Below are positions 11,696 through 15,533 of a stretch of 64,000 bases of DNA, one piece after another. The notes under the pieces were generated by a model. The model was not told where the DNA came from, did not search any database, and worked only from the letters and a program-made list of their open reading frames with translations. Each line of letters starts with the position of its first letter. The stretch's first letter is position 1. Source of the DNA: Escherichia phage Eps7. Location of the stretch: sequence record NC_010583.1; one strand, given 5' to 3'. Both the position numbers and the translations under genes were made by a program.

Positions 11696-11729
11696 CAGCC
11701 AGATCGCTAGTCGATCTGGCTTTTATTTT
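11696..11729 (+). terminator. rho-independent terminator
   Basis: GCCAGATCG-CTAG-TCGATCTGGC followed by TTTTATTTT. Confidence 0.7.
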
Positions 11730-11731
11730 AT

Positions 11732-11760
11732 TTGCTTTCGAGCTAAAACTTATGTATAAT
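11732..11760 (+). promoter_or_regulatory. T5-type promoter TTGCTT-17-TATAAT with downstream TGATTTATAAATTTGAGAGGAG box
   Basis: sequence match to the promoter family recurring on this strand. Confidence 0.65.
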
Positions 11761-12284: not shown

Positions 12285-12447
12285 TCTAGAAAACATGCTT
12301 ATGGAGCAGTGGAACTCTGGGTATAATGCTGGGGTGGCTACTTGTATTGCGGGGTTGGATATGCTTATTAAGCAAGAAAAGGTACGTCCAGAAGAAGCAA
12401 TTCTACTCCAAAATATCATCGAAGGATTCAAGCAAGGAATCGTATAA
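12253..12447 (+). CDS. hypothetical protein (64 aa)
   Basis: GGAGGAG RBS 7 nt upstream of ATG 12253; overlaps previous ORF. Confidence 0.4.
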   Translation: MDFLNQNLKNNLENMLMEQWNSGYNAGVATCIAGLDMLIKQEKVRPEEAILLQNIIEGFKQGIV

Positions 12448-13261
12448 TGCGTAGACTAATCGTTGTTAGTGGTGCAGGTTTGAGTGTAGATAGTGGTGTT
12501 CGTGCTTTCCGTACTGATACTGCTAGTGGTAAAGCGTTGTGGGATGATTATGACCTAGAAGAGGTATGTAATATTCATGCCTTTCGTGGTAATTTTACCA
12601 TAAAACTCATATGTTTTACAACAAACGTCGTGAAGAGTTACAAACTGTTGAACCTAACCTAGCTCATTTGCGTATTGGTGAATGGTATAAACGGTATCCA
12701 AATCAAGTGGTAAACCTTACTACCAATGTTGATGATCTAATCGAACGTGCTGGAGTGCCGAGAGAAGATATACTCCATATTCATGGATATCTGAAAGAAA
12801 TTATTGTAGAGCATGCGTTCGACCAGACACGTGATGTTATTGATATTGGGTATAGTTCTATTGATCCAGATGACTTTGATTGGGTTAAACCTAACGTTAT
12901 CTTCTTTGGTGAGGTTGCTCCTGCCTATAAAACAATGTATGAGGTTTTTGATGGTATCACCAGTCATGATATGATCATCATTGTTGGGTGCTCTAACCAA
13001 GTAATTAACTTCTACTGGGAGCTATTTCCTGTTCTGAATCTTACTGCTGCAAAACTTATGGTAGTTAACTATTACGATAGTGCAGTAGCTATGGAACCAG
13101 GCTATCAGGGCATGACTCGTAGTGAAATGTATCAGTTAGAAGAACGTGGTATTCCTTACTGGAGTAAAGGTGCTGTGGATGCCTTTAGTGATCCCGATTT
13201 TATTGCTCGTGTGGAAGCTCATCTAGAAGGTAAACCCTATGTTCAACAAAAGCATGTGTGA
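12447..13261 (+). CDS. Sir2-family NAD-dependent deacetylase / ADP-ribosyltransferase-like protein, frameshifted
   Basis: VVSGAGLSVDSGVRAFR (GAGxS..SG..FR), TTNVDDLIERAG, HG, KPNVIFFGE, IIVGCS motifs; frame break at T4 (12594-12597). Confidence 0.8.
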
Positions 13262-13401: not shown

Positions 13402-13587
13402 ATGGTGAAGAAGATTTTTAAGGGTATCTGGAAAGGTCTAGTATGGTTTGTCAACCTAATCGGTATGATTACCATTTATTCTCTGTTCCTATCTGTTATG
13501 TGGGGTAAAGGTGAATTGAAGGTTCCAGTTCCTTTTACTGATGAAGTTAAAGTCTGGACGTGGGATGCTACTGGTGGAAATAAGTAA
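13402..13587 (+). CDS. small membrane protein (61 aa)
   Basis: AAGGAGGGAGAAT-ATG RBS; hydrophobic segment GLVWFVNLIGMITIYSLFLSVMW. Confidence 0.4.
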   Translation: MVKKIFKGIWKGLVWFVNLIGMITIYSLFLSVMWGKGELKVPVPFTDEVKVWTWDATGGNK

Positions 13588-14080
13588 TACTCCTATAATT
13601 TTCCTGGATATTGATGGGGTGCTCAATTCGAGCATCTCTCACCATCATGCTCCAGATAGTGAAAAGCTATTCTTTGGTAGTGATTGGGTTTATAAGCCAT
13701 TACTCCAGGCTTTTCAGAACTTCCTTAAACCTTCTCCAATAATGATTGTTGGGGTATCTTCATGGTTTTCTGTACGAAACGAGATGGAGAACGTCCAGAG
13801 TATGACCGGGCTCGGTTTGATCGATCGTTTTCTTGGTACAACAGATTTTACTGGTGGCGGTTTATCTCGTGGTAATTCTGTCTTACGTTTCGTAGAAAAA
13901 CATAAGCTCAAGCATTGGTGCGTCCTAGATGATGCTGGTGCTATGATGTATCAATTTCCTACTGTTATTGTAAATGGCAGGACTGGAATAAACCTTCAAG
14001 ATTTAAATGCTATCAGCTATATGCTGGAGTTTAGTCCAGATCTTGAAATGTGTAAGGCTCTTCAGAAACTCAAGGTGTAA
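13541..14080 (+). CDS. HAD-superfamily phosphatase-like protein
   Basis: IIFLDIDGVLN (DxDG[V/T] motif I); true start may be ATG 13565. Confidence 0.6.
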   Translation: MKLKSGRGMLLVEISNTPIIFLDIDGVLNSSISHHHAPDSEKLFFGSDWVYKPLLQAFQNFLKPSPIMIVGVSSWFSVRNEMENVQSMTGLGLIDRFLGTTDFTGGGLSRGNSVLRFVEKHKLKHWCVLDDAGAMMYQFPTVIVNGRTGINLQDLNAISYMLEFSPDLEMCKALQKLKV

Positions 14081-14082
14081 AT

Positions 14083-14511
14083 ATGTTCGATAATCTTTTC
14101 ATGAAAGAGGTAAACCCTATGCTCCTCAACTTCTGGCGATCTCTCCCTGATGGTATGTATAATGAAACCATCAATCTGCTCAAGATTTGGTGTGAGAATA
14201 ACGATATCTTCTTATCCTTTAAAGGCCCACTAGAGGAAGCTCCGTGTATTGGAGTTAGCGTGGATTTAGGGGAGGGAGTAGAAGAGATTGTAGACTGGAA
14301 AGAACTAGATGAAATGGGTCTGGTTTTTGCCTTGAACCATAAGCTGTTTATGCCTGCAAATCACCGTCTTATTGTAAACTATCGCACTGGTGAAGCTCCT
14401 GCTTTCCAGGTAAATGAACGGGAGGGCTGGTCATATTCGCCCGAAGAAGTAAATGAGGGGATTCAGAAACTTCGTCGTTTCGGGTATATGATCCCAGGTT
14501 TAACTGCTTAA
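14083..14511 (+). CDS. hypothetical protein, tandem paralogue A
   Basis: shares W-EL-EMGL-ALN ... TGE-P ... R-GY-PGL pattern with the next ORF. Confidence 0.55.
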   Translation: MFDNLFMKEVNPMLLNFWRSLPDGMYNETINLLKIWCENNDIFLSFKGPLEEAPCIGVSVDLGEGVEEIVDWKELDEMGLVFALNHKLFMPANHRLIVNYRTGEAPAFQVNEREGWSYSPEEVNEGIQKLRRFGYMIPGLTA

Positions 14512-14520
14512 GGAGGCAGA

Positions 14521-14916
14521 ATGGAACAAGTATTTTGGCGTCAGATAGATCCTAGTTTGGTAGAGCGTGCTGAGGGGCTCCTTGCACGTTGGTTGGGGGT
14601 TGACAAGGTTAGTGTAACATTTCCGTTTACTTCTGTAACAGACCCTAGTGTAGGTGTCTTTGTGGACGAAGATGAAGATGATGGTTGGGAAGCTGACTGG
14701 AATGAATTGTCCAGTATGGGCTTGATTGTTGCCCTCAACTTCTCTATATTCCACCCACGTGGTTTAGCTATTACACGTGATCCCGAAACCGGTGAATCCC
14801 CTTATCTTTTGCAAGTAGAAGATGATATTTGGGAGTACACCGAAGATATTCTCGAAGAAGCTAAAGGTCAATTAAATCGCATTGGGATCTATGTTCCAGG
14901 CCTAAATGATGATTGA
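14521..14916 (+). CDS. hypothetical protein, tandem paralogue B
   Basis: paralogue of 14083..14511; AAGGAGG RBS. Confidence 0.55.
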   Translation: MEQVFWRQIDPSLVERAEGLLARWLGVDKVSVTFPFTSVTDPSVGVFVDEDEDDGWEADWNELSSMGLIVALNFSIFHPRGLAITRDPETGESPYLLQVEDDIWEYTEDILEEAKGQLNRIGIYVPGLNDD

Positions 14917-14939
14917 TTTTCATTAGTCCAATCCTGATT

Positions 14940-14967
14940 ACCGAGTCATTTTGGCTCGGTTTTCTCT
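14940..14967 (+). terminator. rho-independent terminator
   Basis: ACCGAG-TCATTTTGG-CTCGGT followed by TTTCTCT. Confidence 0.6.
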
Positions 14968-15010
14968 GTGCTCAAAGACACTGATAGCACCTTACGGAAA
15001 AATTTTACTT

Positions 15011-15038
15011 GCAGGATGGTCAAAATCTTGATATAATA
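15011..15038 (+). promoter_or_regulatory. T5-type promoter with extended -10 (TGATATAAT) and downstream ATTTATATTGAATTGAGAGAC box
   Basis: sequence match to the promoter family; no ORF follows for ~500 nt. Confidence 0.6.
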
Positions 15039-15533
15039 TTTATATTGAATTGAGAGACATTAGTAAAAATTGATTTTGCTAATTTTTCTTGTTTACAATC
15101 CGCAATACGGAACAGTTAGGCTGCCCCATTAAGGGTTGTTTTAACTATTACTAGTGTTTATACTGCATTAGTTAATTATCAATTAAGTGATCTGCGTACC
15201 CTGAATTCGGAAAGGTAAATCCAAACCGTGCATATTTAGCTCGTTATATAGGCAGAGCTTTATATGGGGGTGCGAACGAAAAGAGCAGCGAATGGTGACA
15301 CGTCCAGTAGCCACCTACCAATAGGATAGTGAGGGCAATCAGAATCGGCTTAGCGGCCAATGACCTAGGTTCTGATCTGGATAAGAGTTAAGAGAGCGCA
15401 GCACTGAGGTATGATAACTTATTCATACTGCTTGATGATGATTAATGTTTGTGTAAATGGTAGTAATAGTTGTTCTATTCTTTTGAATAGTCCTAAAGAA
15501 AGATATTCGAATAACCAACATAGGAGTATTGTT

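What the first reader, a model, noticed from the sequence alone, without database searches (positions are those of the whole stretch)
14083..14916. Tandem pair of paralogous small genes of unknown function
Two adjacent ORFs (142 and 131 aa) share a conserved pattern (W-EL-EMGL-ALN, TGE-P, R-GY-PGL), indicating a local duplication that has been kept. Such pairs in phage early regions are often host-interaction or anti-defence factors.
Basis: seen in the sequence. Interest (0 to 1): 0.45.

Follow-up and report, generated by a model that had tools for sequence, protein, structure and literature searches.

The report
Paired DUF7415 genes of T5-like phage
The two small genes are real, ancient tandem duplicates (orthologs of phage T5 genes T5.106 and T5.107) from a catalogued phage protein family, DUF7415, whose function is still unknown; only the second copy keeps the family's conserved motif.

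Summary
ORFs 14083-14511 (142 aa, "A") and 14521-14916 (131 aa, "B") are paralogs (BLASTP 31% identity over 124 aa, E=1e-20). Both are Pfam DUF7415 and phrog_2502. The window is a T5-like phage (Epseptimavirus), and the genes are orthologs of T5.106 and T5.107.

The duplication is old. I found eight A-then-B pairs and five single-copy loci in divergent T5-like genomes. They always lie between a Sir2-like gene (with or without a SAK-type HAD phosphatase) and the origin-binding helicase. Both copies are under purifying selection.

New here: the copies are unequal. B keeps the family's motif (HPxGLAxxRxPxTGxS; 44-71 bits on a model built from single-domain relatives). A has lost it (1-25 bits). 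Single-copy relatives keep it.

The family is small, almost entirely phage or prophage in the contexts I examined, uniformly acidic, and has no solved structural relative. It is mostly a ~75-aa stand-alone protein found next to, or fused with, replication, nucleotide or RNA-processing genes. In a published knock-down screen T5.107 is borderline "Fit".

The function is not shown. My best guess is an accessory binding module for phage nucleic-acid or nucleotide metabolism. The anti-defence idea is neither supported nor excluded. Already catalogued; modest interest.

The parts
14083..14511 (+). Gene A, 142 aa. Upstream paralog, ortholog of T5.106. DUF7415 protein whose C-terminal lobe has lost the family motif (FMPANHRLIVNYRTGEAP).
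   Evidence: ORF. Pfam DUF7415 125.9 bits and phrog_2502. 73% identical to T5.106, dN/dS 0.08. Only 21.7 bits on the stand-alone-family HMM.
14521..14916 (+). Gene B, 131 aa. Downstream paralog, ortholog of T5.107. Keeps the canonical DUF7415 core (W60, S64, G67-L68, N73, H78-P79, G81-L82-A83, R86, G91, S93, D101/102, Y106).
   Evidence: ORF. Pfam 98.2 bits and phrog_2502. 69% identical to T5.107, dN/dS 0.24. 67.5 bits on the stand-alone-family HMM. AF2 model pLDDT 93.4, pTM 0.86. T5.107 called 'Fit' in CRISPRi-ART.
14695..14838 (+). Core DUF7415 domain of B (aa 59-106). This is the part shared with ~75-aa stand-alone phage proteins.
   Evidence: Pfam best stretch 59-99. tblastn hits from T4-like, P2-like and marine phages cover residues 63-121 only. 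hhalign of C-halves against the stand-alone family gives E=1.8e-26.
14287..14427 (+). Degenerate core domain of A (aa ~69-115).
   Evidence: Pfam hit to the C-half alone, 56.5 bits. Weak on the stand-alone HMM. Alignment columns.
14125..14277 (+). N-terminal lobe of A (aa 15-65). Pfam calls it a second DUF7415 copy.
   Evidence: The N-half alone scores 73.7 bits. My independent tests are weak: hhalign of N-halves against the stand-alone family gives E=0.013, and the stand-alone HMM does not detect it.
14527..14673 (+). N-terminal lobe of B (aa 3-51). Pfam calls it a second DUF7415 copy.
   Evidence: The N-half alone scores 44.6 bits. AF2 gives helix 11-25 plus hairpin 29-33/45-50, mirroring helix 68-80 plus hairpin 82-84/96-98.
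14509..14515 (+). Shine-Dalgarno sequence (AAGGAGG) for B, overlapping the stop codon of A. This suggests translational coupling.
   Evidence: Read from the sequence. In other pairs the two genes overlap by 4-23 nt.
14940..14968 (+). Intrinsic terminator that ends the operon directly after B.
   Evidence: 9-bp stem (5 G-C pairs) followed by a T-run. RNA fold -15.7 kcal/mol, z=-4.0. T5 has an annotated terminator at the equivalent place.
13541..14080 (+). SAK-type HAD phosphatase gene, ortholog of T5.105. Its stop codon lies 2 nt before the start of A.
   Evidence: Pfam HAD_SAK_2 70.4 bits. 92% identical to T5.105.
12447..13261 (+). Sir2-like gene of the same operon, here split into two overlapping ORFs (12447-12662 and 12611-13261).
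   Evidence: Pfam SIR2 and phrog_2162. The same split is annotated in phage PSa2.
11732..11760 (+). Probable early promoter of the operon (TTGCTT, 17 nt, TGtTATAAT), just after the nrdD terminator at 11697-11721.
   Evidence: Read by eye. The consensus scan did not flag it. T5 has an annotated promoter at the equivalent place.

Best explanation
SHOWN. The two genes are an ancient tandem duplicate of a two-lobed DUF7415 protein. They are the last two, probably translationally coupled, cistrons of an early operon of a T5-like phage. The operon runs from a promoter near 11732-11760 to the terminator at 14940-14960: small ORFs, Sir2-like gene, SAK-type HAD phosphatase, A, B. B keeps the family's nearly invariant core motif and A has lost it. 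Single-copy relatives keep the motif, so A degenerated after the duplication.

INFERRED. The conserved core (W, N, S, GL, IN, HP, GLA, R, G, S, D, Y) forms a binding site for a conserved protein or small nucleotide-like ligand. The proteins are strongly acidic, so they probably do not bind nucleic acid themselves. B carries out the ancestral job as an accessory factor of phage nucleic-acid or nucleotide metabolism, either RNA-end repair with Sir2/HAD or replication and dNTP supply. A serves as a diverged partner or scaffold, or has taken on a different target. The pair is not a virion component and probably not a fast-evolving anti-defence gene.
For: Paralogy: E=1e-20. Family membership.

Orthology and synteny with T5.106/T5.107. 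Eight pairs and five singles, always between SIR2 (with or without HAD_SAK_2) and the origin-binding helicase.

Purifying selection: dN/dS 0.08 and 0.24.

Asymmetry on a model built only from stand-alone members: A 1-25 bits, B 44-71 bits, singles 48-73 bits.

The stand-alone family has 20 invariant positions, including N, S, N, H, R, S, D and Y.

All members are acidic, pI 4.0-5.0.

Fusion partners: dATP/dGTP pyrophosphohydrolase, thymidylate kinase, Rv2179c-like 3'-5' exoribonuclease, ASCH/DUF3850, DUF5405, HTH_37.

Neighbours: the replication initiator gpA is directly adjacent in 25 of 62 IMG/VR loci and within three genes in 28; also RNR, DNA methylases and T4 Rnl1. NUDIX appears in two unrelated large phages. 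Aeromonas phage PX29 has HAD_SAK_2, then DUF4326, denA and rnlA, then DUF7415, with a CCA-adding enzyme further on.

Literature: the Sir2 plus SAK-HAD neighbourhood of T5-like phages was predicted to act in NAD-dependent RNA-end repair (PMC9503650). T5.107 is one of 17 'Fit' genes in T5, listed alongside pol, D11, D15, D3 and D5, while T5.106 is 'Not Fit' (PMC11879866 supplement).

Against: Guilt by association is weak in compact early operons. The IMG/VR sample is dominated by related P2-like prophages.

HAD is present in only about half of the T5-like loci, and Sir2/HAD are absent from P2-like contexts.

The T5.107 fitness call is borderline: mean -2.90 against about -3.3 to -4.1 for neighbouring genes, statistic 0.0215.

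AlphaFold on an A-linker-B fusion with a 7-row paired alignment gave pTM 0.46, so no confident A:B complex.

Eight invariant polar residues in about 50 aa would also fit a small enzyme.
Confidence: 0.4

Rival explanations
1. Anti-defence or host-takeover inhibitor. A and B are small acidic proteins that bind and block a host protein, for example a defence nuclease or RNase. This would resemble T4 Dmd or DNA-mimic anti-restriction proteins. Duplication would have broadened the target range.
Confidence: 0.25
2. The DUF7415 core is a small enzyme or ligand sensor that acts on a nucleotide-derived molecule (dNTP, NAD/ADP-ribose derivative, or RNA 2',3'-cyclic or 2'-phosphate end). B would be the active copy and A a pseudo-enzyme-like partner.
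For: There are eight invariant polar residues (N, S, N, H, R, S, D, Y) within about 50 aa. Fusions are to nucleotide enzymes: PF04447 pyrophosphohydrolase, thymidylate kinase and an exoribonuclease. Sir2, HAD, NUDIX and Rnl1 are neighbours. The intact-versus-degenerate paralog pattern fits.
Against: No similarity to any known catalytic fold. The domain is very small. The N-lobes of the T5-type proteins lack the residues, so a dimeric active site would be incomplete. No ligand has been predicted or tested.
Confidence: 0.15
3. Dedicated subunit of the T5 replication-initiation machinery. It would work with the origin-binding helicase encoded downstream, and with gpA in P2-like phages.
For: The pair always lies immediately upstream of the origin-binding helicase gene in T5-likes. 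The family is adjacent to, or fused next to, gpA in P2-likes. T5.107 is called Fit alongside replication genes.
Against: A terminator and a gap of about 600 nt separate the pair from the helicase gene, which has its own promoter in T5. T4-like phages carry the family far from replication genes. gpA and the T5 helicase are unrelated proteins.
Confidence: 0.12
4. Virion or tail protein, or exonuclease, as some GenBank records annotate the orthologs.
For: Database labels only: 'tail tube protein', 'tail protein', 'putative exonuclease'.
Against: No Pfam, PHROG or NCBIfam hit to any tail or nuclease family. The genes lie in an early operon. No fold match. Most records say 'hypothetical protein'.
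Confidence: 0.01

Closest known systems
Phage T5 genes T5.106 and T5.107 (YP_006934, YP_006935)
   Same: Orthologs: 73% and 69% identity, the same order, the same operon (Sir2 T5.102, HAD T5.105), the same terminator, and the same downstream origin-binding helicase T5.108.
   Different: None of substance. T5 has an intact Sir2 gene, whereas the window's is split. The T5 genes have no assigned function either. T5.107 is a borderline 'Fit' gene in CRISPRi-ART.
Stand-alone DUF7415 proteins (Pfam PF24187; PHROGs 3954, 1812, 33705), for example Aeromonas phage PX29 gp182, Aeh1 ORF299c, and the gene after gpA in P2-like prophages
   Same: They share the core of about 50 aa with its nearly invariant motif. 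The C-lobe of B aligns at 40-50% identity. They are acidic and phage-encoded.
   Different: They are single-domain proteins of about 75 aa (probably dimers, by inference), or fusions to ASCH/DUF3850, DUF5405, HTH_37, a pyrophosphohydrolase or an exonuclease. The T5-type proteins add an N-terminal lobe and a conserved C-terminal G-x-x-[IV]-P-G-L tail, and they come as an intact plus degenerate pair.
Sir2 plus SAK-HAD phage neighbourhood predicted as NAD-dependent RNA-end repair (Iyer, Burroughs, Anantharaman and Aravind 2022, PMC9503650)
   Same: The window carries exactly this neighbourhood, and the pair completes the same operon. Sir2 is present in all 12 informative T5-like loci.
   Different: The section of the paper I read (3.7.3) does not mention these genes. 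HAD is missing in about half of the loci. The family also occurs where no Sir2 or HAD is present. The RNA-repair role of the Sir2/HAD genes is itself a prediction.
Small acidic phage inhibitors such as anti-CRISPR AcrIC4 (PDB 8dfo_M) and T4 Dmd (the latter from my own knowledge)
   Different: The structural match is below significance and identity is 18%. There is no sequence relationship. Family conservation is far higher than is usual for such inhibitors.

Membership tests
Pfam DUF7415 (PF24187) | Whole-protein score at or above the gathering cut-off of 27 bits | tested here: met
   A scores 125.9 bits and B 98.2 bits. Each half alone also passes: 73.7, 56.5, 44.6 and 57.8 bits.
Pfam DUF7415 (PF24187) | Canonical core motif of the stand-alone family (W-N-x2-S-x2-GL-x3-IN-x3-LHP-x-GLA-x2-R-x4-G-x-S ... 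D-G-x-W-x-Y) | tested here: met
   Met for B, which has all positions (I to L at one) and scores 67.5 bits on a stand-alone-only HMM. Largely not met for A (H to M, GLA to NHR, S to A; 21.7 bits).
Two tandem DUF7415 repeats per protein (internal duplication) | The N-lobe is homologous to the core domain when tested independently of the Pfam model | tested here: inconclusive
   hhalign of N-halves against the stand-alone family gives E=0.013 over 54 collinear columns, probability 3%. The stand-alone HMM finds only one domain per protein. The AF2 secondary structure of both lobes is helix plus hairpin.
PHROG phrog_2502 | Full-length profile match | tested here: met
   E=1.1e-59 (residues 11-142 on profile 2-134 of 134) and E=2.3e-58 (residues 1-130 on 4-134 of 134).
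T5.106/T5.107 ortholog pair | Reciprocal similarity plus conserved gene order (HAD, A, B, terminator, origin-binding helicase) | tested here: met
Sir2/SAK-HAD RNA-repair neighbourhood (PMC9503650) | A sirtuin gene and a SAK-type HAD phosphatase in one conserved neighbourhood | tested here: met
   SIR2 at 12447-13261 and HAD_SAK_2 at 13541-14080 lie in the same operon as the pair. Whether the pair belongs functionally to that system has not been tested.
Sir2/SAK-HAD RNA-repair neighbourhood (PMC9503650) | Obligate co-occurrence of DUF7415 with Sir2 and HAD | tested here: not met
   Sir2 co-occurs in all 12 informative T5-like loci, but HAD in about half of them. P2-like and other contexts lack both.
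Known anti-defence protein families | Homology to a characterised anti-defence protein | not testable with these tools
   No anti-defence profile library was available. Pfam, PHROGs and NCBIfam gave no such hit.
Tail tube or tail protein (label in some GenBank records) | Homology to a tail family, or a location in the late structural module | tested here: not met
   No tail-family hit. The genes lie in an early operon between nrdD/Sir2 and the replication genes.

The most novel reading that the evidence does not exclude
DUF7415 is a previously unrecognised small fold whose invariant polar core binds, or acts on, a nucleotide-derived ligand or a conserved nucleic-acid-metabolism protein. It would be a widespread accessory of phage RNA-repair, dNTP and replication modules. 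In T5-like phages it would have evolved into a fused two-lobe protein and then into an intact (B) plus degenerate (A) pair that together are needed for full phage fitness.
Probability: 0.25. Interest if true: 0.55.

Novelty: already known. Interest (0 to 1): 0.33.

Why it matters
As it stands this is a catalogued pair of hypothetical genes (T5.106/T5.107, DUF7415), so the finding itself adds nothing new. Three things make the family a reasonable target for experiments:
- It is conserved across T5-like, T4-like and P2-like phages with about 20 invariant residues, yet it has no structural or functional relative.
- One member, T5.107, is among only 17 genes whose knock-down measurably hurts T5.
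- The intact-versus-degenerate paralog pattern gives a built-in control for mutagenesis.

If the link to the Sir2/HAD cassette holds, the family would add a component to a predicted but untested phage RNA-repair or NAD-dependent pathway.

Tried and rejected
1. Sequence search of both proteins, and of a core-domain profile, against PDB. Only chance hits (LRR repebodies E~1e-3 to a low-complexity N-terminus; Rhs E=0.5) or none.

3. Test for an A:B heterodimer by folding A-(G4S)6-B with a 7-row genome-paired alignment. pTM was 0.46: both halves folded, but with no confident mutual placement. This does not support a complex, but it is a weak test.

4. Independent test of the internal duplication that Pfam implies. 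Marginal only.

A single protein returned only 2 loci. A tighter alignment, A7, worked.

6. Literature searches for DUF7415, PF24187, the PHROG ids and T5.106/T5.107 found nothing in main texts. Only the CRISPRi-ART supplements mention the genes. HIDEN-SEQ does not cover T5-like phages.

7. NCBIfam gave no family for A, B or their relatives.

8. Rfam and a repeat scan of the operon and of the 600-nt gap downstream found nothing.

9. A third HAD_SAK_2 linkage was sought in an Enterobacter T4-like phage and not found.

10. The 'tail tube' and 'exonuclease' database labels were rejected as annotation errors.

Full report
WHAT IS THERE. The window is a T5-like phage of the genus Epseptimavirus. 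Region 13500-15400 is 98.6% identical to Escherichia phage PSa2 and about 98% identical to Salmonella phage S124, and 523 phage records match it. BLASTP of A against B gives 31% identity over 124 ungapped residues, E=1e-20. The quoted motifs are present. Both proteins match Pfam DUF7415 (125.9 and 98.2 bits; cut-off 27) and PHROG 2502 end to end. They are the orthologs of T5.106 and T5.107 (73% and 69% identity, same neighbours). B is 100% identical, and A 99.3% identical, to proteins already in GenBank.

OPERON CONTEXT. After the nrdD terminator (11697-11721) comes a promoter-like site that I read by eye: TTGCTT, 17 nt, TGtTATAAT at 11732-11760. T5 has an annotated promoter at the same relative position. 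The genes that follow are three small ORFs, a Sir2-like gene, two small ORFs, a SAK-type HAD phosphatase (13541-14080; HAD_SAK_2 70 bits), then A and B. The HAD stop codon lies 2 nt before the start of A. B has an AAGGAGG Shine-Dalgarno sequence overlapping the stop codon of A. A strong intrinsic terminator follows B at 14940-14960 (fold z=-4.0). After a gap of about 600 nt comes the origin-binding helicase gene. No Rfam family and no notable repeat lies in this region.

AGE AND FATE OF THE DUPLICATION. I collected the locus from divergent T5-like genomes and contigs.
- Pairs, always in the order A then B, occur in the window, T5, a Klebsiella phage (L006) and contigs L022, L024, L025, L026 and L109.
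- Single copies occur in Pectobacterium phages DU_PP_V (L007) and My1 (L111) and in contigs L020, L023 and L110.
- In every informative locus the gene or genes sit between a SIR2 gene and the origin-binding helicase. HAD_SAK_2 is present in about half of the loci.
- In most pairs the two genes overlap by 4-23 nt, which suggests coupled translation.
- Between the window and T5, dN/dS is 0.08 for A and 0.24 for B. Both copies are therefore maintained by selection.

THE TWO COPIES ARE NOT EQUIVALENT. An exhaustive profile search of 1.84 billion cluster representatives found only 287 family members at E<=1e-3. Most are single-domain proteins of about 75 aa. These stand-alone proteins are very well conserved. 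Twenty positions are invariant in a 25-sequence alignment: W, N, S, L, G, L, I, N, L, H, P, G, L, A, R, G, S, D, G and Y.

I built an HMM from 108 stand-alone members only and scored the T5-type proteins with it.
- The downstream paralogs score 44-71 bits (window B 67.5).
- The upstream paralogs score 1-25 bits (window A 21.7).
- Five proteins confirmed as single-copy score 52-73 bits (P0144, P0145, P0151, P0153, P0162).
- P0152 (48 bits) and P0269 (20 bits) have unchecked genomic context. P0161 (51 bits) is the downstream member of the L109 pair.

In A the motif HPxGLAxxR...TGxS has become MPANHRLIVN...TGEAP. The simplest reading is that the ancestor was a single two-lobed protein with an intact core. 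After duplication the first copy lost the core motif while keeping the fold and the conserved C-terminal tail G-[YF]-x-[IV]-P-G-L.

CLUES TO FUNCTION.
(i) All members are acidic: A has pI 4.6 and charge -10, B has pI 4.05 and charge -20, and the stand-alone median pI is 4.9. Direct nucleic-acid binding is therefore unlikely.

(ii) Fusion partners among 76 longer members, plus IMG/VR loci, are dATP/dGTP pyrophosphohydrolase (2), DUF3850/ASCH (2, plus the P2-like locus L003), Rv2179c-like 3'-5' exoribonuclease, thymidylate kinase, DUF5405, HTH_37 and a few others. Most extra regions have no Pfam match.

(iii) Neighbours. In 62 IMG/VR loci with a crude ORF call, the replication initiator gpA is within three genes in 28 and directly adjacent in 25. 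That sample is dominated by related P2-like prophages. NCBI and Logan contigs show the same position after gpA. Two unrelated large phages have a NUDIX gene close by. In Aeromonas phage PX29 the order is td, HAD_SAK_2, DUF4326, denA, rnlA, DUF7415, with a CCA-adding enzyme further on. This is a second linkage to a SAK-type HAD, independent of the T5-like lineage.

(iv) Literature. The Sir2 plus SAK-HAD neighbourhood of T5-like phages was predicted to be an NAD-dependent RNA-end repair system (PMC9503650). The section I read does not mention these two genes. In the CRISPRi-ART screen of T5, T5.107 is one of 17 "Fit" genes and T5.106 is "Not Fit". The effect for T5.107 is small (mean -2.90, statistic 0.0215, five guides). 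The screen also misses known important genes such as T5.108, so it is insensitive (PMC11879866 supplements). That result matches the intact-versus-degenerate pattern found here.

INTERPRETATION. The following are shown: paralogy, orthology to T5.106/107, family membership, operon position, purifying selection, asymmetric loss of the core motif, acidity, and the absence of known structural relatives. The function is inferred.

I think it most likely (about 0.4) that B is an accessory binding module for phage nucleic-acid or nucleotide metabolism, linked either to the Sir2/HAD cassette or to replication and dNTP supply. Its invariant polar core would bind a conserved protein or a small ligand. 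A would be a diverged partner.

The rivals are:
- an anti-defence or host-takeover inhibitor (0.25);
- a small enzyme or ligand sensor (0.15);
- a dedicated replication-initiation subunit (0.12).

AlphaFold on an A-linker-B fusion did not give a confident complex (pTM 0.46). That is a weak negative, given the seven-row alignment.

VERDICT. This is a real, ancient, retained duplication of an already catalogued domain of unknown function. It is ordinary as a finding. The family itself is a decent candidate for experimental work because of its conservation, its lack of any known relative, the T5.107 fitness signal, and the natural intact/degenerate pair.

Noticed in passing
window 12447-13261: The Sir2-like gene is split into two overlapping ORFs in different frames: 12447-12662 (71 aa, with the N-terminal GAGLS motif) and 12611-13261 (216 aa). 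The same split is annotated in the closest relative PSa2 (SIRT5_1/SIRT5_2). The gene is intact in S124 (280 aa) and T5 (272 aa). It could be a real frameshift or pseudogene, programmed frameshifting, or a shared sequencing error.
   Followed up: partly
window 11732-11760: Probable early promoter with an extended -10 element (TTGCTT, 17 nt, TGtTATAAT) directly after the nrdD terminator (11697-11721). The consensus scan missed it because the -35 hexamer is weak. T5 has an annotated promoter at the equivalent position.
   Followed up: partly
window 14917-15530: A non-coding gap of about 600 nt lies between the operon terminator and the origin-binding helicase gene. A gap of 400-620 nt is present in all T5-like loci I examined. 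There is no Rfam hit and there are only trivial repeats. The 15411 start that the ORF lister gives for the helicase (970 aa) is probably too far upstream, since annotated orthologs are about 929 aa.
   Followed up: partly
GenBank records matching window 14083-14916 (hits H49, H50, H54, H56, H104, H105, H117; protein P0001): Orthologs of the pair are labelled 'tail tube protein', 'tail protein' or 'putative exonuclease' in some records. The HAD_SAK_2 gene (13541-14080) is labelled 'Sir2 (NAD-dependent deacetylase)' in RefSeq. None of these labels is supported by the profile searches.
   Followed up: yes
phage records MG065642.1 (Campylobacter phage A148) and OR847565.1 / OR845045.1 (Listeria and Salmonella fragments): Records named after Campylobacter and Listeria hosts match this enterobacterial T5-like phage closely in the region: 98.1% DNA identity for A148, and 85.5% protein identity over part of B for the Listeria fragment. 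This probably reflects contamination or mislabelled hosts.
   Followed up: no
L005 (Aeromonas phage PX29) 1643-4210: A T4-like phage carries td, HAD_SAK_2, DUF4326, denA, rnlA and a stand-alone DUF7415 gene in a row, with a CCA-adding enzyme about 2 kb further on. This is a second, independent linkage of DUF7415 with a SAK-type HAD and with RNA-repair enzymes.
   Followed up: partly
L111 3745-4017 (phage My1) and L007 2589-2840 (phage DU_PP_V): In these single-copy T5-like phages a small protein of 83-90 aa with a glycine-rich hydrophobic N-terminus (probably membrane-associated) occupies the slot where paralog A sits in other phages. It is not a DUF7415 relative.
   Followed up: partly
L081, L069 and related IMG/VR P2-like loci: There are two recurrent fusion architectures in P2-like prophages. 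One is DUF5405+DUF7415 (157 aa) directly upstream of gpA. The other is a 185-aa protein with an unassigned N-terminal region plus DUF7415, directly downstream of gpA and usually followed by a DNA methyltransferase-like gene.
   Followed up: partly
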